Numbered from the stretch's first letter, positions 1 to 32,000 are shown. The stretch is 32,000 bases of DNA from Candidatus Saccharimonadota bacterium (GCA_027925225.1 AP027131.1:390001-422000); one strand, 5' to 3'. Program-made: numbers and translations. Notes: generated by a model not told the origin, from the sequence alone.

Positions 1-375
1 AGTGTGGGAGATATATATAATGCAAACTTTATTTCAAAAAATGGTAATTATTATACATATGAAATAAATAATTTAAATAAAAAAACTAATTATCAAATCT
101 ATTCAATTATAGATCCGCCTTTTGTTGCATTAACTCCAGATGCTGATCCAACAGATGAAATTTTGATTTCAAGTATAGATAATAACCAGGAAGATTTTAT
201 GTTTGCTACAGAAAAAGGAAATATACTAATTTATACACTTTTATTTTTTATAATATTAATAGTTTTATTATTATTTATTATTTCAATGAACATTTATACA
301 AAATATAAAAAAAAATTAGAAATTAAGAAATTAAATAAAATTGAAAAAGATTTTAGTGAAGAATCTAATTTTTAA
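1..375 (+). CDS. 3' end (C-terminal ~124 aa) of a repeat-family surface protein. The gene starts upstream of the window.
   Basis: Frame 1 is open from base 1 to TAA at 373-375. The tail architecture matches the genes at 27513 and 29829: motif YTYEINNLNKKTNYQIYS (compare YTYEVTNLNDNTDYTFYS), a short stalk, a hydrophobic TM helix (ILIYTLLFFIILIVLLLFIISM), then a Lys-rich tail. Confidence 0.7.
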   Translation, partial: SVGDIYNANFISKNGNYYTYEINNLNKKTNYQIYSIIDPPFVALTPDADPTDEILISSIDNNQEDFMFATEKGNILIYTLLFFIILIVLLLFIISMNIYTKYKKKLEIKKLNKIEKDFSEESNF

Positions 376-450: not shown

Positions 451-556
451 GTTGGTGAAGATAACACTAAGGTAACACCTGATTCCATACCGAACTCAGA
501 AGTGAAGATTAGTCGTGCCGAAGGTAGTATAATGCAAGAATAGGTAATTGCCAACT
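451..556 (+). rRNA. rrf: 5S ribosomal RNA
   Basis: The only GC-enriched non-coding island in the window. It contains the universal 5S core CCATACCGAACTCAGAAGTGAAG. The 5' GTTGGTGA pairs with the 3' AATTGCCAAC to form helix I. Length is about 105 nt, typical of mollicute 5S. Confidence 0.9.
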
Positions 557-19137: not shown

Positions 19138-19149
19138 ATTGAATAAAAT

Positions 19150-20736
19150 ATGAACACACACATGAATAAAAATTTTAATAATTTAACAAATTTTAATGAT
19201 TTAGATAAAAGTACACAAATAGCAATCTATGTTTTAGTTTTTCTTTTAGCAATTTTTTTATTATTACTATTGTTTGTCATTATTTCTAAAATAAGAAAAA
19301 ATAAAAAAACAAAAGAATATCAAGAAGTAAACCAAGAAATACAACAAAAAACTGTTGAAAGCGAAAATTTTACTGTAGGATCAAACGTTAGTGAAAATGC
19401 CGAAAAAAATAGACGCAGAGAAGAAGAAATTGCCAAGGAAAAACTAATACCAACAGCAGATGCATTGGGAATTGAAAATCCAATGCAATATTCTTTTTCA
19501 AGATTAGAACAATTAATAATGATGGCTGAACTTAAAGGAAAAAGAAAACCTCAAGAACAAAGCCCTTCAGAAACAAAGGAAGTTTTACAAGAACAAAAAC
19601 CAATTCCTGAACCTGAGCAAAAAATTCAACAAGAACAAAAACCAATTCCTGAACCTGAGCAAAAAAAAGAACAAGAGCAACCTTTAAAAACAAAAAAACA
19701 AGATTCAACACATCACCAAGTTTTTGATGACAAAGAATTGCAAAAAATATTAGACATACAATTAAAAAATCAAGTATTAATAACTAATTATGAAAAAAGT
19801 ATAAAAGGAATTTTAAAAGAAATAAATGATAGCACTAATAAAAAAGAAGAAGGAGAAGGAGAAGAAAAAGAATCTCCAGAACGTAACGAACGCTTCTCTG
19901 AATTTGCTAAATTATTTATAGAAGACAGAAAAATCAAAGAAAACAATAATAGTAATCACAATAATCATGGAATAAATGAAAAAGAAAACAAATCTCTTGA
20001 AAAATTAATTAAAAAAAATGAAATGCTTGAGGAAGAAATTTCAAAAATAAAAAGAGAAAGTTTTGATAATGAAAAAAGAAGATTTCAAGATGACTTTGAA
20101 AGAAAACAAGCGCAATTACAAAATGAAAGAAAAATGTTAGAAAATGAACGTATTAATATACAACAAAGACGTTTTGCTGATGAAATAGAAAGTAAAATAA
20201 TGAATAAAATTGCTTTTCAAACTTCCGAAATAAGACAAATGGCAAATATGATGAAAAGTAATAATAATAAAAATGAATACACAGATAATTCAAATGCAAA
20301 TGTAAATAATGAAAACATTTTAAAAACAATAGAGATAGAACTTGACAAATTATCAAGAAAAATGGATTATTATGATAAAAAAAGTGAAATAGAAAATAAT
20401 TATGCAATAGAAGGAAAATTTGAAAAAAAATCAAGTAAAAATTTAAATGAAAATTCAAGAACAAATTCAAAACAAAAAGAAAATCATTTAGTTTCAAAAA
20501 AATCTAATTTTGATGATAGTGAATTTAATTATGATCTTGATAATAAAAATTTTTACGAAAACATAGACTCTGAAAATTCAAATAATATTAATAAAAAAAC
20601 AACTCAAAAAAATAACAAATCACATCAAAAAAAGGATAATAATGATGAATTAAATCAAGAAAATGATAAATTACTTGAAACGATTGAAATAGAATTAGAT
20701 TTATTAAATAAAATTCTGAAAGAAAATAAAAAATAG
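19150..20736 (+). CDS. Hypothetical membrane-anchored coiled-coil, low-complexity protein (528 aa) immediately downstream of ftsZ
   Basis: Uninterrupted ORF. It has one TM helix near the N-terminus (IAIYVLVFLLAIFLLLLLFVIIS), a P/E/Q-rich repeat, long K/E/R/Q coiled-coil stretches, and a duplicated TIEIELD.L motif. Confidence 0.6.
   Translation: MNTHMNKNFNNLTNFNDLDKSTQIAIYVLVFLLAIFLLLLLFVIISKIRKNKKTKEYQEVNQEIQQKTVESENFTVGSNVSENAEKNRRREEEIAKEKLIPTADALGIENPMQYSFSRLEQLIMMAELKGKRKPQEQSPSETKEVLQEQKPIPEPEQKIQQEQKPIPEPEQKKEQEQPLKTKKQDSTHHQVFDDKELQKILDIQLKNQVLITNYEKSIKGILKEINDSTNKKEEGEGEEKESPERNERFSEFAKLFIEDRKIKENNNSNHNNHGINEKENKSLEKLIKKNEMLEEEISKIKRESFDNEKRRFQDDFERKQAQLQNERKMLENERINIQQRRFADEIESKIMNKIAFQTSEIRQMANMMKSNNNKNEYTDNSNANVNNENILKTIEIELDKLSRKMDYYDKKSEIENNYAIEGKFEKKSSKNLNENSRTNSKQKENHLVSKKSNFDDSEFNYDLDNKNFYENIDSENSNNINKKTTQKNNKSHQKKDNNDELNQENDKLLETIEIELDLLNKILKENKK
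19588..19666 (+). repeat. Two copies of a 37-bp unit with a 42-bp period inside the CDS
   Basis: CAAGAACAAAAACCAATTCCTGAACCTGAGCAAAAAA occurs at 19588-19624 and 19630-19666. It encodes QEQKPIPEPEQK twice. Confidence 0.9.
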
Positions 20737-25535: not shown

Positions 25536-25606
25536 AAAAATAAGAATAAAAATAAATAAAAGAATAATTTAAACACATGTATTGATTATTCTTTTATTTA
25601 TTTTTA

Positions 25607-26837
25607 ATGACAATTATTTTAATTTATGGACTTTTCTTAAATTCAATAATATTTTTAATATTTTTCTTATTATTTTTTTTATATTTATTATTTATAAATC
25701 TTAAATATTTAATTTTATTGTTTTTTATTTTTCCAATTATTATTAATTTAAATTCTGTTATAAATCAAAATATAAATAATAATTATTATCATCAAGGAGT
25801 TATAACAAAAACATATAATAACTCTTTTATCGTAAAAGAAAACAATAATTTCTATTATATTTATTCAACAGAAAATATTTATGTTGGGGATATTATTTTT
25901 TTTCAAGGAAATTATGTAAAAATAAATGAAATAGATGATTTTTCTTTGTTTTTAATAAGCAATAAGGTTTTATACACCGGTAAAGAAATAAGTAATATAA
26001 AAATATTAAAAGAAAAAAAATCAATAAGAAATAACAAAATAAAAAACTTAAAAGAAAGCTCTTCAAAATATGCAGACTATACCCTTTTGCTTATTTTTAA
26101 AAAAGAAAATGAAAATAATAAATATCTTTTAAATAATTTTAATAAATTAGGAATAGAGCATTTATTTGTAATTTCTGGATTTCATATAGGAATTATTTAT
26201 TTATTTACTTTTTATATTTCTAAACCATTTATTAAAAAGAAAATTATTTTACAAATAATCGCTTCTACAATTTCTTTTTATTTTCTTTATCTTACATTTT
26301 TCCCAGTATCGGGAATTAGAGCATGAATTTATAGAAATATAGAATCATCAAAAAATAATGAGTAAAAATAATTCTCTTACTTTTACAGCATTAATAATGC
26401 TTTTATTAAATCCATTTTTTGCTTTTTCAATTTCCTTAATACTTTCATTTTCAATAACTTTTTTAATAATTAATATTAATCAAACAATATGAAGTAAAAA
26501 GAAAAAAACAATTTATACTTCTTTGTTTTCTTTTTTATTAGCTTCTTCTTTAATTACAATTTGAAATCAAACAATTAATCTTTTTGCACCATTTTTAACA
26601 ATAATTTGTTCACCATTTATTATTATTCTTTATACATTTATATTGATTTTTTTGCCATTTAAATTTTTGTGAATTTATTTAAACTTTTTCTTTTTGTTAT
26701 TTGATTTATTTTTTTATTTATTATCCTTTATTTATTTACCACTTTTAATTCCAATTTTTCCACTTATATTGCATTTTATTATTTTTATATTACTTTTTTA
26801 TTTTTTAATTAAAATAATAAAAAAGAAAAAAAATTAA
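25607..26837 (+). pseudogene. comEC: ComEC/Rec2-family DNA-internalisation membrane protein, interrupted by a +1 frame change (two ORFs: 25607..26365 and 26358..26837)
   Basis: The N-terminal part has TM helices, an OB-like segment (YVGDIIFFQGNYVKI) and the ComEC core LGIEHLFVISGFHIG ... FPVSGIRA. The frame stops at TAA 26363-26365. The +1 frame continues with the expected downstream ComEC segment LTFTALIMLLLNPFFAFSISLILSF. The junction lies at an A6 run (26350-26355). Confidence 0.7.
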
Positions 26838-27334: not shown

Positions 27335-27368
27335 ATTTCAAAACTGTTAATAATAACAGTTTTGAAAT
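27335..27368. repeat. Perfect palindrome/hairpin with 15-bp arms and a 4-nt loop
   Basis: ATTTCAAAACTGTTA (27335-27349), loop ATAA, then TAACAGTTTTGAAAT (27354-27368). It lies 145 nt upstream of the surface-protein gene start. Confidence 0.9.
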
Positions 27369-27389
27369 TCTAAATTACATAAATATAAT
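27362..27389 (+). promoter_or_regulatory. Candidate promoter for surface-protein gene A; the -35 box lies inside the palindrome arm
   Basis: TTGAAA (27362-27367), a 16-nt spacer, then TATAAT (27384-27389). Chance matches are frequent in DNA this AT-rich. Confidence 0.35.
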
Positions 27390-27512
27390 TATCACTATAA
27401 AATTAATTATTTATAGTTTTTTTTAAAATAAAAAAGTTTATTTTTTTATTTTTAATTTAAATTGTATAATAAATGTTTTTATTTATTTTAAAAATAATAT
27501 AATTTATATATT

Positions 27513-29438
27513 ATGAAAAAAAATTTACTTGTAATTATTTTTTTACCAATAATATTTTTTTTACAAAATTTTATTTTTTTAAATAAAAATGTAGAATGTA
27601 ATTATTTATCAAAAAATAATTCTATTTTAGTTACAGAAGAACAAAATCCTTATATAGAGAGCGGACCAATAATTTGGTATCCAAATGAAGAAGAAGATAG
27701 CATAAATTTTGAACTTTCAATACATGACAATGATAGTCATGATTTTTTTACAAAAGTAAAAAATGAAGATGGTATTAGCATGTATATAATTGATTACTAC
27801 GTAGATGAAATAACTGCAGTTTCTGCTTATTCTACTTTTGAATGTATTAATATGCCAGTGAATCCAGTTGATAATTATAAATATATTTTTGAGATAGATA
27901 TGGGTGATTTTGCATTAGAAAACTATGATAGTCCTTATACAAATTGAGAATATGATAGTACATATTCTTTAAATTATATAAAATCTAATATTCTTGCAGT
28001 AGATAGTTATTACAATGTACCTACTGAAGAACTTTATTTTTCAGATTTTGGGGTAATTAATAGAGATTTCCAAACAACAATTTTTAATCCTTATATTGTA
28101 GGAAAAAGTGGATTTGAAATTTTAAATACGAATGTAAATTCAGTTCAATTTCAAATTAAAGCAATAAATGATTATGAAGAAAATTATGATTTTGAAAACA
28201 GCACTTTTAATATAAAATTAAATAATATTGATAGTGGCGAAGAAATAAATACAACCGCCATTTATGTAGGAACTGGAGAAGAAAAAAATACATATATTTA
28301 TGAAATAAATGGTTTAACTCCTAATACAAATTATGAAATTCTTTCTTTAGATAATACAAATCTTTCTGCACTTAGTCCATATTATGAGAATGACTCTTCA
28401 ATTTCAATTAGTGATTCTTTTGAAAATGGAGGTTTAAATTCAAATGGTTCTTTTTATACAATTAATGAAAATAATCCTTACATTGAAGAAAGAGGATTTG
28501 ATATTTTAACTACAACAGAAAATTCAGTAGAATTTCAAATAGCTGTAATTGAAAATAAAGATATTAGTTTTGATCCAAAAAATTCATTAAATGTAACAAT
28601 AAATGATTCTCTAGGGAATTCAATAAATAAAACAGCAAATTATATCGAAGAAGAAAGCTCTGGAAATAATTATGTTTATGAAATAACAGGCCTTGAAGAA
28701 GGAACAAGTTATGAAATTATTTCTTTAAATAATACTGGACTTGCTGTTGGAAACAATTTAAATGAAATTGATAATGAAATTTTAATAAAAGATGATTTGG
28801 GAGCAGAAGGAAATTTTATAACATTGAATAATAATCCATATATTGAGACCGGTACTAATAGTGGCTTTGAAATTATAAGTTATACAGAAACAACTGTAAC
28901 TTATACAATTACTGTTTATAATAAAAAACCAAATGAAAATATTGATGTTACATTAACATTAAATGAAAATAATTTAATATCCCCTAAAATTAACAATAAT
29001 TTAACAGAAACAAAAACATACTCATCACATCTTATAGATTCTGATGAGGAAAATAATAAATATACATATGAAGTTACAAATTTAAATGATAATACTGATT
29101 ATACTTTTTATTCTTTAGATAACAGTGGACTTGCAATTGGAAGTAGTTCTGAAGAAATTGATGATCAAATAATACTTACTGATGAATTATTCGTTAATCC
29201 AAATTTATTATTTTTTAAAACATATGAAAGCAAAATTCCAAATTATGTTTGAATAATTTTAATAATTTTTCTAATTATAATTATTTTTATAGGTATTTTA
29301 TTACTTCTAAGAACAATAAATAAAAATAAAGAAAAAAAAATAGATAGAGAAATTAATAATTTAGCAGGAGAAAGAATTAACAAAAAAGTAATTAAAAATA
29401 AAAAAAATAAAAAAAATAAAAAAAATTATTTTGGGTAG
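27513..29438 (+). CDS. Modular repeat surface protein A (641 aa): signal peptide, N-terminal domain, three ~120-130-aa repeat modules, C-terminal TM anchor and Lys-rich tail
   Basis: ORFs 27513..27947 and 28797..29252 are in one frame, and the frame stays open between them and after them via TGA=Trp, ending at TAG 29436-29438. Modules start at NPYI motifs (28086, 28473, 28833). The TM anchor is WIILIIFLIIIIFIGILLLL. Confidence 0.8.
28801..29378 (+). repeat. 578-nt block, near-identical copy of 31423..32000 (3' parts of genes A and B)
   Basis: In my hand alignment at a constant offset of 2622 nt I counted 21 mismatches and no indels over 578 nt. Twelve of those fall in the last 500 nt. The block covers module 3, the stalk, the TM anchor and the start of the tail. 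Confidence 0.9.
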
Positions 29439-29443
29439 GTAAT

Positions 29444-29471
29444 TCTGAAAATAATTATGTTTATGAAATAA
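29444..29471 (+). repeat. 28-nt relic of the module-2 core in non-coding DNA just after the gene A stop
   Basis: TCTGAAAATAATTATGTTTATGAAATAA matches the coding segment TCTGGAAATAATTATGTTTATGAAATAA (SGNNYVYEIT; present in A at about 28660 and twice in B) at 27 of 28 positions. Confidence 0.8.
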
Positions 29472-29583
29472 AAAAACTCAAAAAAATAATTATAAATTTT
29501 TTAAAATAAATATTATTTATTAAATTGAAGCTTATACTAAACTTAATTTAGAAAATTATAAGTTATAAAAATATAATTTTTCA

Positions 29584-29673
29584 TTATAAATTTACATCTT
29601 ATAATGAAAATAATTTGAAATAAAAAAACACATTTATTAAATATAATAATTTTTATAAGATGTAAATTAATAA
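29584..29673. repeat. Inverted repeat with a 16-bp perfect core (20 of 21 when extended) flanking a 48-bp spacer, between genes A and B
   Basis: AATTTACATCTTATAA (29589-29604) pairs with TTATAAGATGTAAATT (29653-29668). The flanks extend the match to 29584 and 29673 with one mismatch. Confidence 0.85.
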
Positions 29674-29828
29674 ATATAAATATAAAATTGCAAATTTAAA
29701 TAATAAAAATTATTATGATATTTATTTAATTAATAATAGAAAAATATCATTTAGTAGCAATGTTTAAATATTAATTTTGATTCTATTAAATAATTTTATT
29801 TTTTAAAAAAAGTTATAATTATTATAAT

Positions 29829-32000
29829 TTGAAGAGAATTTTTTTTATTTTAATAATTTTACCTAATATTTTTTTTACACAAATATTTTTTTCGTTAAAT
29901 AATAATAAATTAATGACAAATGAATATTCTTATATAGAAAGTGGAATACCAATAAATTGATATCCAAATCAAAAAGAAAATAGTATAAATTTTGGACTTA
30001 TAATACATGAAAATGAAAATCATGATTTTTATGAAAATTTAATAAGTAATGATAGTTTTATTAAAATTGGAATAGGCGATAGACCAAATGGTTCAAATAA
30101 TATTGGAGTTGCTGATTATGAATTTCCATGTATCAATATGCCAACAGAAGAAGAATTAGATTTAAATTCTATTTATGAATATATTTTTGAAATAAATATA
30201 GAATTTTTCAAAGATGACCAATATTGATTATATAAAATTGAAGACAATATTCTTTCAATAGATAATTATTATGATGAACCACTTAATAATATTAGATTTT
30301 ATGATGATTTAAAAATAACTAATAATGATTTTAAACAAAATACTTTTAATCCTTATATTGTTGGAAAAAATGGATTTAAAATTATAAAAACAACAGAAAA
30401 TTCAGTTCAATTTCAAATTAAAGCAATAAATGATTATGAAGAAAGTTATGATTTCGAAAACAGTTCTTTTAACGTGACTTTAAATAATATTGATAATGAT
30501 TTTATAATTAATACTAAAGCTAATTATATAGGTATTGGAGAAGAAGATAATACATATGTTTATGAAATAAATGGTTTAACTTCTGATACAAATTATGAAA
30601 TTCTTTCTTTAGATAACACAAATCTCTCTGTTCTTAATCCTTGCTATGAAAATGATTCTTCAATTTCAATTAATGATACATATGAAAACGGTGGTTTAAA
30701 TTCAGATGGTCATTTTAAAACAATTCGAGAAGAGAAATCTTACATAGAAGAAAAGGGATTTGAAATTTTAGATACAACATCAAATTCTGTAAAATTTCAA
30801 ATAACTGTAATAGAGGATGAAGAAAATAGTTTTGATCCTTCTATTTCTTTAAATGTAACAATAAATGATTCCTTAGGAAATTCAATAAATAAAACAGCAA
30901 ATTATATCGAAGAAGAAAGCTCTGGAAATAATTATGTTTATGAAATAACAGGCCTTGAAGAAGGAACAAATTACGAAATTATTTCTCTAAATGATACAGG
31001 ACTTGCTGTTGGAAGCGGTTTAAATGAAATTGATAATGAAATTTTAATAAGCGATGATTTGGGCGCTGATGGAAGTTTTAATACTTTAAATGATGATCCT
31101 TACATTGAAGAAAAAGGATTTGAAATTTTAGATACAACATCAAATTCTGTAAAATTTCAAATAACTGTAATAGAGGATGAAGAAAATAGTTTTGATCCTT
31201 CTATTTCTTTAAATGTAACAATAAATGATTCCTTAGGAAATTCAATAAATAAAACAGCAAATTATATCGAAGAAGAAAGCTCTGGAAATAATTATGTTTA
31301 TGAAATAACAGACCTTGAAGAGGGAACAAGTTATGAAATTATTTCTCTAAATGATACAGGACTTGCTGTTGGAAGCGGTTTAAATGAAATTGATAATGAA
31401 ATTTTAATAAATGATGATCTGGAAGCAGAAGGAAATTTTGTAACATCGAATACTAACCCGTATATTGAAACTGGTGCTAATAGTGGCTTTGAAATTATAA
31501 ATTATACAGAAACAACTGTAACTTATACAATTAATGTTTATAATAAAAAACCAAATGAAAATATTGATGTTACATTAACATTAAATGAAAATAATTTAGC
31601 ATCCCCTAAAATTAACAATAATTTAACAGAAACAAAAACATATTCATCACATCTTGTAGATTCTGATGAGGAAAATAATAAATATACATATAAAGTTACA
31701 AATTTAAATGATAATACTGATTATACTTTTTATTCTTTAGATAACAGCGGACTTGCAATTGGAAGTAGTTCTGAAGAAATTGATGATCAAATAATACTTA
31801 CTGATGAATTATTCGTTAATCCAAATTTATTATTTTTTAAAACATATGAAAGCAAAATTCCAAATTATGTTTGAATAATTTTAATAATTTTTCTAATTAT
31901 AATTATTTTTATAGGTATTTTATTAGTTCTAAAAATAATAAACAAAAATAAAGAAAAAAAAATAGATAGAGAAATTAATAATTTAGCAGGAGAAAGAATT
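29829..32000 (+). CDS. Modular repeat surface protein B (paralogue of A with four repeat modules); 3' end runs off the window
   Basis: TTG start at 29829. The product LKRIFFILIILPNIFF aligns with A's MKKNLLVIIFLPIIFF, and the frame is closed upstream at 29787-29789. The frame stays open to 32000 through TGA codons, including the one at 31872-31874 before the TM anchor. Modules start at 30348, 30735, 31095 and 31455. Confidence 0.8.
30735..31454 (+). repeat. Tandem in-frame duplication, 2 x 360 bp (one 120-aa module each)
   Basis: Copies at 30735-31094 and 31095-31454. A 195-nt stretch (30756-30950 versus 31116-31310) is identical, and a further ~76-nt identical stretch follows after a few substitutions. 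Confidence 0.92.

What the first reader, a model, noticed from the sequence alone, without database searches (positions are those of the whole stretch)
27513..32000. Tandem pair of a modular, TM-anchored repeat surface-protein family, with a third member at 1..375; candidate undescribed adhesin or variable-surface system
This is the only clearly accessory locus in an otherwise minimal, housekeeping window.

Two adjacent large genes encode the same architecture:
- an N-terminal signal-like hydrophobic segment with no convincing lipobox
- a ~190-aa N-terminal domain
- three (A) or four (B) ~120-130-aa modules, each opening with N-P-Y-I-E/V
- a C-terminal TM helix and a Lys-rich cytoplasmic tail

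Each module carries the pattern GFEIL.T..NSV.FQI.VI ... LNVT.N ... (G)NNY.YEI.GL...T.YEI.SL.N.GLA. The Y.YEI.GL...T.YEI.S part resembles the F-G strand signature of FN3/Ig-like beta-sandwich domains. That resemblance is my inference from pattern only.

A type-I-like anchored, non-lipoprotein repeat family is unusual for mollicutes, whose variable antigens are mostly lipoproteins. A diverged third copy 27 kb away shows the family is dispersed.
Basis: partly seen in the sequence, partly recalled or inferred. Interest (0 to 1): 0.8.

Follow-up and report, generated by a model that had tools for sequence, protein, structure and literature searches.

The report
FN3-like membrane-anchored surface protein family
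Two neighbouring genes of the woodlouse gut symbiont 'Candidatus Hepatoplasma vulgare' encode cell-surface proteins built as chains of fibronectin-III-like modules held in the membrane by a C-terminal helix; they are plausible but untested candidates for attaching the bacterium to its host, and are a new family of a well-known kind of protein.

Summary
The window comes from 'Ca. Hepatoplasma vulgare' Av-JP (code 4, 21% GC).

- **Gene A** (27513-29438) is HPAVJP_3550.
- **Gene B** (29829 to beyond 32000) is HPAVJP_3560.
- **Bases 1-375** are the 3' end of HPAVJP_3270.

All three belong to a family with at least 8 paralogues in this genome. Further members occur in two undescribed Hepatoplasma-like genomes.

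Each protein has a basic/hydrophobic leader with no lipobox. It then has 2-9 modules of about 120-130 aa, a C-terminal TM helix and a basic tail. The "N-terminal domain" is a diverged module.

AlphaFold2 models one module with pLDDT 94.9. Its best PDB matches are FN3 domains. No Pfam, NCBIfam or PDB sequence family is matched significantly.

A and B are mosaic paralogues: 43% identity in the distal module rises to 95% in the proximal module and TM. B carries a recent 360-bp module duplication, and the spacer holds a decayed module.

Ectodomains are very acidic and Lys/Arg-poor. No phase-variation machinery was found.

The most likely role is adhesin or spacer on the wall-less cell surface, analogous to phytoplasma Vmp and Spiroplasma ScARP. 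That role is inferred, not shown. Verdict: new member of a known kind, of moderate interest.

The parts
27513..29438 (+). Gene A = HPAVJP_3550, 641 aa, with 3 in-frame TGA=Trp codons. Layout: leader, 4 modules, TM helix, Lys-rich tail.
   Evidence: ORF under table 4. 100% identical to P0001. Architecture.
27513..27644 (+). Leader of A (aa 1-44). MKK is followed by a 20-aa hydrophobic core (aa 3-25), then a polar stretch up to NPYIE. Cys29 is not in a lipobox (the context is NVEC).
   Evidence: Kyte-Doolittle scan; sequence. Whether the leader is cleaved is not testable here.
27645..28085 (+). A module 1 (aa 45-191): a diverged, membrane-distal module with insertions.
   Evidence: Profile hit E 5e-4 and alignment with N-terminal modules of relatives. 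AF2 gives pLDDT 66.5 and an all-beta model. Foldseek finds no match.
28086..28472 (+). A module 2 (aa 192-320).
   Evidence: Module HMM E 3e-33; 74% aa identity to B module 2.
28473..28832 (+). A module 3 (aa 321-440), the module that was modelled.
   Evidence: HMM E 5e-48. AF2 gives pLDDT 94.9 and pTM 0.87. Top Foldseek hits are FN3 domains.
28833..29225 (+). A module 4 (aa 441-571), membrane-proximal.
   Evidence: HMM E 4e-32; 95% aa identity to B module 5, dS 0.08.
29226..29327 (+). C-terminal hydrophobic TM segment of A (aa 572-605; core VWIILIIFLIIIIFIGILLLL).
   Evidence: Kyte-Doolittle peak 3.84.
29328..29435 (+). Cytoplasmic tail of A (36 aa; 14 K+R against 4 D+E; pI 10.4).
   Evidence: The charge pattern follows the positive-inside rule (inference).
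29439..29828 (+). A-B spacer holding decayed module relics. Relics: 29444-29471 (GNSENNYVYEI), 29549-29610 (KIISYKNIIFHYKFTSYNENN) and 29660-29730 (KYKYKIANLNNKNYYDIYLINN). The last ~60 nt are a promoter/5' region homologous to that upstream of A.
   Evidence: blastn to the A coding sequence gives 96%, 74% and 81% identity for these pieces, colinear with module 4. HMM hit E 0.003. Upstream alignment.
29829..32000 (+). Gene B = HPAVJP_3560. It starts at TTG 29829 and runs off the window; it would be 751 aa with the leader, against 723 aa as deposited. Layout: leader, 5 modules, TM (31848-31952), then the start of the tail.
30735..31454 (+). B modules 3 and 4: a recent tandem 360-bp duplication, which is the extra module relative to A.
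   Evidence: TRF finds period 360, 1.9 copies, 97% matches over 30739-31422; the repeat finder family D1.
1..375 (+). 3' end of HPAVJP_3270 (1011 aa, 7 modules). It covers the last part of module 7 (13-207), the TM (about 223-297), the basic tail and the stop codon at 373-375.
   Evidence: Identical to the C-terminus of P0004; HMM hit E 2e-17.

Best explanation
A and B are two paralogues of a Hepatoplasma-lineage family of type-I-like membrane-anchored surface proteins.

**Proposed mechanism.**
1. An N-terminal leader takes the chain across the single membrane of this wall-less bacterium.
2. A string of 4 (A) or 5 (B) FN3-like beta-sandwich modules forms an acidic, Lys/Arg-poor rod projecting from the cell. 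At the usual ~3.5-4 nm per FN3 domain this would be roughly 15-20 nm (inferred).
3. A C-terminal TM helix and a basic cytoplasmic tail hold it in the membrane.

**Proposed role.** The most likely role is adhesin or spacer mediating contact of the extracellular symbiont with the isopod midgut-gland surface. The membrane-distal module would be the specificity-bearing part.

**Evolution.** The family evolves by module duplication and loss and by recombination or gene conversion between paralogues.

**Shown versus inferred.**
- Shown: the sequence architecture, the fold prediction, the paralogue mosaic and the lineage distribution.
- Inferred: topology, surface exposure, rod length and adhesion.
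For: - **Organism and family.** A is HPAVJP_3550 of 'Ca. H. vulgare'. Seven further paralogues lie in the same 662-kb genome.
- **Uniform architecture.** All 22 members examined share the plan: basic/hydrophobic leader, 2-9 modules, C-terminal TM, tail beginning with K/R.
- **Module fold.** The AF2 model has pLDDT 94.9 and pTM 0.87, with 7 main strands. The best PDB matches are FN3 domains (Tencon, titin Fn3, NCAM Fn3; probability about 1). Sub-threshold Pfam fn3 and Pur_ac_phosph_N hits agree.
- **Charge asymmetry fits the topology.** The ectodomain has pI about 4, with K+R 3.8% against 13-17% in housekeeping proteins of the window. The tail has pI above 10.
- **The genes are functional.** dN/dS is 0.28-0.52 in modules 2-4. 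Positional orthologues are conserved in a related species at 66% identity, with flanking genes at 70-90%.
- **Module turnover.**
  - B carries a 360-bp tandem duplication.
  - The spacer holds a decayed module.
  - At the fmt locus, positional orthologues have 9 modules in one genome and 3 in another.
- **3' homogenisation.** A/B identity runs 43%, 74%, 82%, 95% from distal to proximal, with dS falling from 0.44 to 0.03.
- **Known analogues.** The same signal-repeats-TM plan is found in adhesins of other arthropod-associated mollicutes (PMC4392738).
- **Open question addressed.** How Hepatoplasma adheres to B-cell microvilli is stated to be unresolved (PMC13264560). Beta-sandwich repeat ORFs were already proposed as adhesins in this bacterial family (PMC10928387).
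Against: - There is no experimental or expression evidence.
- No ligand-binding domain was recognised. The distal module model is only pLDDT 66.5 and has no structural match.
- FN3 similarity is moderate: Foldseek E is at best 3.6e-3 and TM at most 0.61, and no module reaches the Pfam gathering score.
- Between species, orthologues show no faster change in the distal module; identity is 61-75% in all modules. The distal divergence between A and B may therefore reflect only 3' gene conversion, not selection on a binding tip.
- Leader cleavage is unknown. If the leader is not cleaved, the protein would be tethered at both ends.
- dN/dS of about 1.1 in module 1 comes from a simple Nei-Gojobori estimate in a 21% GC genome and is imprecise.
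Confidence: 0.55

Rival explanations
1. The proteins form a protective surface coat or spacer rather than an adhesin. A dense layer of acidic, protease-resistant FN3-like rods would shield the wall-less membrane from digestive enzymes, surfactants and host antimicrobial factors in the midgut gland. It would also keep cells apart.
For: - Ectodomains are strongly depleted in Lys/Arg (3.8% against 13-17% in neighbouring housekeeping proteins) and have pI about 4. This removes trypsin-type cleavage sites; the link to protease resistance is an inference.
- There are many paralogues of different lengths.
- No distinct ligand-binding head domain was recognised.
- The genome paper raises 'physical barriers' as a possible symbiont role (PMC10928387).
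Against: - No lattice-forming or self-association evidence exists.
- Abundance is unknown.
- The coat and adhesin roles are not mutually exclusive.
- Comparable proteins in phytoplasma and Spiroplasma were shown to be adhesins (PMC4392738).
Confidence: 0.2
2. The locus is a variable-surface-antigen system. Paralogues would be switched on and off, or recombined at high frequency, to evade host immunity. This would be like the Vsp, Vlp, Vsa or MgPa systems of mycoplasmas.
For: - It is a multigene family with tandem and dispersed copies.
- A and B are mosaic, consistent with gene conversion.
- There is a decayed module in the spacer and one truncated paralogue, HPAVJP_3710, which lacks a TM.
- Module number varies.
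Against: - There is no lipobox.
- No recombinase or invertible element lies in the 32-kb window; the neighbours are dinB, a membrane protein and comEC.
- Promoter-like and short-repeat signals do not exceed AT-rich background: 76 sites found against 60 ± 8 expected. TRF finds only weak A/T-rich repeats.
- Each full-length gene has its own leader and a conserved upstream region, so these are not silent cassettes.
- Positional orthologues persist between species.
Confidence: 0.1
3. The proteins are receptors or signalling and tethering proteins whose conserved basic cytoplasmic tail couples an extracellular signal, or the cytoskeleton, to the surface.
For: - The TM and tail are the most conserved part between A and B (91-95% aa, dS 0.03).
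- The plan resembles eukaryotic type I FN3 receptors (Foldseek hits to gp130, Tie2 and PTPRF FN3 domains).
Against: - Tails are short (3-43 aa in most members), differ between paralogue groups and carry no recognisable domain.
- Between orthologues the TM and tail are the least conserved part, at 34-36%.
- The A/B conservation is better explained by recent gene conversion.
Confidence: 0.05
4. The ORFs are not real genes. They would be repetitive low-complexity ORFs, pseudogenes, or artefacts of nanopore-based MAG assembly.
For: - The genome is an ONT-based MAG (PMC10928387).
- The nearby comEC is split into two ORFs.
- One paralogue is truncated.
Against: - The ORFs are 641 and more than 724 codons long and uninterrupted under code 4, in a 21% GC genome where stop codons are frequent.
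- dN/dS is below 0.5 in modules 2-4.
- Orthologues occur in independent assemblies.
- The fold prediction is high-confidence.
Confidence: 0.03

Closest known systems
Phytoplasma variable membrane proteins (VmpA, VmpB, Vmp1) and Spiroplasma citri ScARP/SARP1 adhesins
   Same: - Non-lipoprotein surface proteins of arthropod-associated mollicutes.
- Same plan: an N-terminal signal sequence, a stretch of tandem repeats and a C-terminal TM anchor (PMC4392738).
- Multigene families with variable repeat number.
- Act, or are proposed to act, at the insect gut epithelium.
   Different: - No detectable sequence similarity. There are no Pfam or NCBIfam hits, and tblastn against 72,556 plasmids found nothing. 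From my own knowledge, ScARP genes are plasmid-borne; I did not check that those plasmids are in the collection.
- The repeats here are 120-130-aa FN3-like domains filling the whole ectodomain, not short repeats next to a non-repeated region.
- Adhesion is demonstrated for VmpA and ScARP3d but not for these proteins.
Large repetitive beta-sandwich ORFs of Hepatoplasmataceae (Kawato et al. 2024, PMC10928387), e.g. TYPL_3890/3910, HCTKY_2320, HPPSJP_2240
   Same: - Same bacterial family.
- Tandemly arranged genes made of beta-sandwich repeats.
- Proposed adhesins.
- TYPL_3890 has the same plan of leader, about 21 repeats, C-terminal TM and short basic tail.
- TYPL_3890 is weakly related to the module profile: hmmsearch E 1e-7 and hhalign 74%, E 3e-5.
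   Different: - The proteins here are mid-sized (441-1011 aa in H. vulgare), not 'giant'.
- They are not mentioned by locus tag in the paper's main text or in the one supplementary file held as text.
- The paper could not model the repeat units of the H. vulgare giant ORFs, whereas this module models at pLDDT 94.9.
- Homology to the Tyloplasma repeats is only marginal.
Fibronectin type III domain (Pfam PF00041, clan E-set/FN3) in bacterial surface proteins and eukaryotic type I receptors
   Same: - A seven-strand beta-sandwich.
- The E-strand, 'L..(P).T.Y' and F-strand signature (YEItgLeegtsYEIisL).
- Top structural matches are FN3 domains.
- Distant profile hits include annotated FN3 proteins.
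   Different: - Below the Pfam gathering score. The best whole-protein score is 23 bits against a 25-bit cut-off, and only 3 of 29 single modules hit at E <= 0.1.
- Each module has an extra ~30-aa C-terminal strand-helix-strand extension (EIDNEILI..DLG..G.F.T).
- Each module has a conserved N-P-Y-I-E junction.
Tandem Ig-like/FN3-like rod adhesins of walled bacteria (LPXTG-anchored proteins such as SasG or Rib; RTX adhesins with BIg extender domains, PMC7493085, PMC5550230)
   Same: - A chain of beta-sandwich domains that projects a distal part away from the cell.
- Acidic inter-domain junctions.
- Length varies through repeat number.
   Different: - Anchoring is by a TM helix, not by sortase/LPXTG or an outer-membrane plug. 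No LPXTG motif precedes the TM (sequence).
- No separate ligand-binding head domain was identified.
- Ca2+ binding in the linkers was not tested.

Membership tests
Pfam fn3 (PF00041), by sequence | Score at or above the Pfam gathering threshold (25 bits) | tested here: not met
   A scores 16.8 bits and B 23.0 bits. Only 3 of 29 single modules hit at E <= 0.1, best 0.0015. A PDB sequence profile search found nothing significant.
FN3-like beta-sandwich, by fold | A seven-strand sandwich that superposes on solved FN3 domains | tested here: met
   The AF2 model has pLDDT 94.9 and pTM 0.87. The Foldseek top 5 and most of the top 50 are FN3 domains, with probability 0.97-1.0, E 3.6e-3 to 5e-2 and TM (target-normalised) up to 0.61. 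Support is moderate, not strong.
Mollicute variable surface lipoproteins (Vsp, Vlp, Vsa, Vmm types) | Lipobox with an invariant Cys at the end of the signal peptide | tested here: not met
   None of the 22 leaders has [LVI][ASTVI][GAS]C. The only nearby Cys in A sits in NVEC.
Mollicute variable surface lipoproteins (Vsp, Vlp, Vsa, Vmm types) | A switching device: promoter homopolymer or short tandem repeat, or a site-specific recombinase with an invertible element | tested here: inconclusive
   No recombinase lies in the window. A/T runs and promoter-like sites are at background for 16-21% GC DNA. Population data would be needed to settle this.
Phytoplasma Vmp / Spiroplasma ScARP adhesins | Architecture of signal sequence, tandem repeats and C-terminal TM | tested here: met
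   for the architecture here; PMC4392738 for the reference architecture.
Phytoplasma Vmp / Spiroplasma ScARP adhesins | Sequence homology to the Vmp or ScARP repeats | tested here: not met
   No Pfam or NCBIfam family is hit at E <= 1 apart from chance-level hits. tblastn of A against the plasmid collection found no match. None of the 41 profile hits among 1.84 billion representative proteins carried a phytoplasma or Spiroplasma name; source names were looked up for 19 of them, most from unnamed assemblies.
Phytoplasma Vmp / Spiroplasma ScARP adhesins | Demonstrated binding to host or vector cells | not testable with these tools
   Requires recombinant protein and isopod tissue.
Hepatoplasmataceae giant repetitive beta-sandwich ORFs (PMC10928387) | Tandemly clustered ORFs made of beta-sandwich repeats in a Hepatoplasmataceae genome | tested here: met
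   A and B are adjacent, and there are other tandem pairs in L002 and L006. Beta-sandwich fold.
Hepatoplasmataceae giant repetitive beta-sandwich ORFs (PMC10928387) | Sequence relationship of the repeat unit to the published giant ORFs | tested here: inconclusive
   TYPL_3890 gives hmmsearch E 1.1e-7 over 21 stretches and hhalign 74% probability, E 2.9e-5. The H. vulgare giant ORFs themselves could not be retrieved.
Sortase-anchored (LPXTG) Gram-positive surface proteins | LPXTG motif immediately before the C-terminal hydrophobic segment | tested here: not met
   The sequence before the TM is ...LFFKTYESKIPNYVW.... The organism is a wall-less mollicute.

The most novel reading that the evidence does not exclude
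Most novel reading not excluded by the evidence:

- The mid-sized proteins here, the 2781-aa, 23-repeat protein in an unnamed code-4 mollicute contig (GCA_040777445.1), and the Tyloplasma giant ORFs may form one superfamily of TM-anchored FN3-like rods.
- This superfamily would be the long-sought attachment apparatus of Hepatoplasmataceae to crustacean midgut-gland microvilli.
- Rod length (2-23 modules) would be tuned by unequal recombination.
- The Lys/Arg-depleted ectodomains would be an adaptation that lets an exposed protein survive in digestive fluid.
Probability: 0.2. Interest if true: 0.55.

Novelty: new member of a known kind. Interest (0 to 1): 0.3.

Why it matters
Hepatoplasma are widespread extracellular symbionts of isopod and other crustacean digestive glands. 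How they hold on to the brush border is explicitly described as unresolved (PMC13264560).

This family gives concrete, clonable candidates:
- defined module boundaries;
- a high-confidence module model;
- a corrected start codon for HPAVJP_3560, so the gene can be expressed with its leader.

It also shows that FN3-like repeats joined to a TM anchor recur across Hepatoplasmataceae, from 2 to more than 20 modules. This links the mid-sized proteins, at least weakly, to the 'giant ORFs' already noted in these genomes.

It does not reveal a new principle. Chains of beta-sandwich domains on bacterial surfaces, and signal-repeat-TM adhesins in mollicutes, are both well known.

Tried and rejected
1. 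**Homologue searches.** The search for homologous proteins with the module alignment returned only one fragment, and with P0012 only the query itself. The word index is swamped by Asn-rich low-complexity words. These two searches add nothing and say nothing about absence.
2. **Genome and metagenome scans.** Two scans of GTDB representative genomes and one of JGI metagenomes used back-translated motifs (NNYVYEIT, YEIISLNN, I[YI]SL[NE][ND]TGL). None found a confirmed relative. H. vulgare itself is evidently not in the genome collection. So this only shows that close relatives are rare in public data.
3. **Presence in H. crinochetorum and H. scabrum** could not be settled. The exhaustive search lists only one representative per 50% cluster. 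DnaK and GAPDH of the two Logan organisms have no named relative at 90% identity or more.
4. **Distal-module fold.** AF2 reached only pLDDT 66.5 and Foldseek gave no meaningful match. I rely on the sequence profile to call it a diverged module.
5. **Idea rejected: the distal module is generally fast-evolving.** Orthologue pairs show even divergence along the protein.
6. **Idea rejected: phase variation.** No supporting element was found.
7. **Idea rejected: ScARP homology.** tblastn against plasmids found no match.
8. **Host species** of samples ERR14127475 and SRR24015491 could not be determined. The 2026 Tylos paper uses other accessions.
9. **Rfam and tRNA scans** of the window found nothing in the locus.

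Full report
**Origin and reading frames**

The window is 21% G+C. Its housekeeping genes (gatA, gatB, alaS and others) are intact only under translation table 4. Under that code, two long adjacent + strand ORFs occupy 27498-29435 and 29790-32000, the second running off the window. A truncated ORF ends at 372.

A protein search identified gene A as HPAVJP_3550 of 'Candidatus Hepatoplasma vulgare', 100% identical over 641 aa. The genome is a 662,108-bp MAG from the woodlouse Armadillidium vulgare. Gene B is HPAVJP_3560. The fragment at 1-375 is the last 124 residues of HPAVJP_3270, which is 1011 aa long.

Five more paralogues lie in the same genome: HPAVJP_3250, 3650, 3680, 3690 and the truncated 3710. 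All are deposited as 'hypothetical protein' with no precomputed Pfam domain.

**Anatomy**

An HMM built from the A and B repeats finds 39 modules (E < 1e-5) in the 11 proteins first recovered. A refined 29-module profile (A1) shows that every one of 22 family members has the same plan:
- a basic then hydrophobic leader;
- 2 to 9 modules of about 115-135 aa, most opening with N-P-Y-I-E;
- one strongly hydrophobic C-terminal segment;
- a tail that begins with Lys/Arg.

No leader has a lipobox Cys.

It aligns with the N-terminal modules of relatives through shared motifs (F.L.V.DN.N.DFY ... EY.F.I..L ... SLNN..LA). It is therefore a diverged module with insertions. A has 4 modules and B has 5.

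The start of B is most likely TTG 29829. The ATG of A at 27513 aligns base-for-base with it, the upstream TATAAT is conserved, and the encoded MKRIFFILIILPNIFF... parallels MKKNLLVIIFLPIIFF... in A. The public CDS starts at ATG 29913 and so lacks the leader.

**Fold**

AlphaFold2 was run on A module 3 with the 29-module alignment. It gave pLDDT 94.9 and pTM 0.87, with seven main strands followed by a short strand-helix-strand.

Foldseek against the PDB put FN3 domains on top: Tencon variants, titin Fn3 and NCAM Fn3. Probabilities were about 1, E-values 3.6e-3 to 5e-2, and target-normalised TM-scores up to 0.61.

By sequence the modules are only sub-threshold relatives of Pfam fn3 and Pur_ac_phosph_N. 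They have no significant PDB sequence match.

The conserved Y.YEI.GL...T.YEI.SL motif lies on strands E and F of the model (residues 66-72 and 79-86). The mapping to the FN3 motif rests on my knowledge of the FN3 consensus.

The distal module modelled poorly (pLDDT 66.5, all-beta) and had no structural match.

**Topology and composition**

| Region | Measure | Value |
|---|---|---|
| A ectodomain | D+E | 17.3% |
| A ectodomain | K+R | 3.8% |
| A ectodomain | pI | about 4 |
| gatA, gatB, alaS, ftsZ-like (same window) | K+R | 13-17% |
| A and B tails | pI | above 10 |

This charge asymmetry fits an outside-ectodomain, inside-tail orientation by the positive-inside rule (inference).

The Lys/Arg depletion stands out in a genome whose composition favours AAA codons. 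It suggests selection on the exposed part. Resistance to trypsin-type digestive proteases is one possible reason, but that is speculation. Whether the leader is cleaved cannot be decided with the tools available.

**Evolution of the locus**

A and B are mosaic paralogues.

| Region (A vs B) | aa identity | dS |
|---|---|---|
| Module 1 | 41-43% | 0.44 |
| Module 2 | 74% | 0.38 |
| Module 3 | 81-82% | 0.19-0.30 |
| Last module | 95% | 0.08 |
| TM + tail (aligned 51 codons) | 94% | 0.03 |

- At the DNA level, the last 908 bp shared within the window are 93.8% identical.
- dN/dS is 0.28-0.52 in modules 2-4, which indicates purifying selection.
- dN/dS is about 1.1 in module 1. This is a rough Nei-Gojobori estimate.
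- B carries a 360-bp tandem duplication at 97% identity, which accounts for its extra module.
- The 390-bp A-B spacer contains decayed pieces colinear with a last module: GNSENNYVYEI, KIISYKNIIFHYKFTSYNENN and KYKYKIANLNNKNYYDIYLINN. This is evidence of past rearrangement.

Between species the picture is calmer. A Logan contig (ERR14127475, 21% GC) is syntenic with the left end of the window. The family genes there are 66% identical to their H. vulgare orthologues, against 70-90% for the flanking genes. Divergence is even along the protein, at 61-75% per module.

So the steep gradient between A and B is best read as 3'-polar gene conversion or partial duplication. It is not a general hypervariable tip.

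Module number does change at orthologous loci. Between DUF2779-fmt and the next gene, one genome has a 9-module protein (P0013) and another a 3-module protein (P0010).

**Distribution**

An exhaustive profile search of 1.84 billion representative proteins found only 41 hits at E <= 1e-3 and 13 at E <= 1e-30.

- The strong hits are H. vulgare proteins and proteins from two sequencing runs, ERR14127475 and SRR24015491. Contigs from these runs are 21-24% GC and encode mollicute-type housekeeping genes.
- DnaK and GAPDH from these organisms have no named relative at 90% identity or more.
- More distant is a 2781-aa, 23-repeat protein with the same leader/TM plan. It lies on a 33% GC, TGA=Trp contig of GCA_040777445.1 (hhalign 96%, E 2e-9).
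- Also distant is TYPL_3890, one of the Tyloplasma 'giant ORFs' (hmmsearch E 1e-7; hhalign 74%).
- Weaker hits are ordinary FN3 proteins.
- Pattern scans of GTDB representative genomes and JGI metagenomes found no relatives.

**What is already known**

[quoted passage not shown] It suggests they are adhesins. It notes that the repeat units of the H. vulgare ORFs could not be modelled. It does not mention the genes studied here in its main text or in the one supplementary file held as text.

[quoted passage not shown] A non-lipoprotein, TM-anchored repeat protein is therefore not unusual for arthropod-associated mollicutes. There is no sequence similarity to those families.

A 2026 paper states that how Hepatoplasma adheres to B-cell microvilli remains unresolved (PMC13264560).

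**Interpretation**

The best-supported reading is a lineage-specific family of membrane-anchored rods of FN3-like domains on the surface of a wall-less gut symbiont. The rods most likely act in host contact as adhesins or spacers. The family diversifies by module duplication and loss and by gene conversion.

- **Protective coat:** a serious rival, and compatible with the adhesin reading.
- **Switching variable-antigen system:** no positive support.
- **Artefact or pseudogene:** excluded for A and B by ORF length, purifying selection, orthologues in independent assemblies and the confident fold.

Function remains inferred.

**Verdict**

The finding is a new sequence family of a known kind of protein. 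Interest is moderate (0.3).

Noticed in passing
window 451-556 (+): A lone 5S rRNA gene (Rfam RF00001, 73.6 bits) lies directly downstream of HPAVJP_3270. No 16S or 23S gene is nearby in the window.
   Followed up: no
window 25568-26362 and 26343-26834 (+): A comEC-like competence gene is split into two overlapping ORFs. The Pfam Competence profile is hit at positions 6-83 and 102-267. This could be a frameshift, a pseudogene or a nanopore indel. It lies immediately upstream of the 680-bp spacer before gene A.
   Followed up: partly
window 29829-29912: The public annotation of HPAVJP_3560 starts at ATG 29913 and omits a 28-aa leader that begins at TTG 29829. The TTG aligns exactly with the ATG of gene A, and the upstream TATAAT is conserved.
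   Followed up: yes
window 27335-27368: A perfect 15-nt inverted repeat (ATTTCAAAACTGTTA / TAACAGTTTTGAAAT, 4-nt loop) lies about 145 nt upstream of gene A. It overlaps the best promoter-like site, 27362-27389, which matches 11 of 12 positions. It could be an operator or a terminator.
   Followed up: no
window 27630-29225 and 29919-31847 (ectodomains): Ectodomains are strikingly Lys/Arg-poor (3.8% against 13-17% in neighbouring housekeeping proteins) and acidic (pI about 4). The tails have pI above 10. This may be an adaptation of an exposed protein to digestive fluid.
   Followed up: partly
L005 10001-13444 and L007 4026-5351: Positional orthologues sit between DUF2779-fmt and the next gene in two undescribed Hepatoplasma-like genomes. 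One has 9 modules (1147 aa) and the other 3 modules (441 aa).
   Followed up: partly
L003 6001-14346 (GCA_040777445.1, contig JBEVUG010557107.1): A 2781-aa protein has about 23 related repeats, a leader and a C-terminal TM. It lies on a 120-kb, 33% GC, TGA=Trp contig inside what looks like a very large assembly. This is probably an unrecognised mollicute symbiont in a host genome project.
   Followed up: partly
P0005, P0006, P0007, P0009 (HPAVJP_3680, 3690, 3650, 3710; outside the window): This is a sub-cluster of four near-identical paralogues. They carry a ~120-aa middle segment that barely matches the module profile (E 0.1-7). One copy, 3710, is truncated before the TM and is probably a pseudogene.
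   Followed up: no
window 19147-20733 (+): A 528-aa protein has an N-terminal TM and a long Lys/Glu/Gln-rich repetitive region (PIPEPEQK repeats). It has no Pfam match and lies next to the ftsZ-like gene.
   Followed up: no
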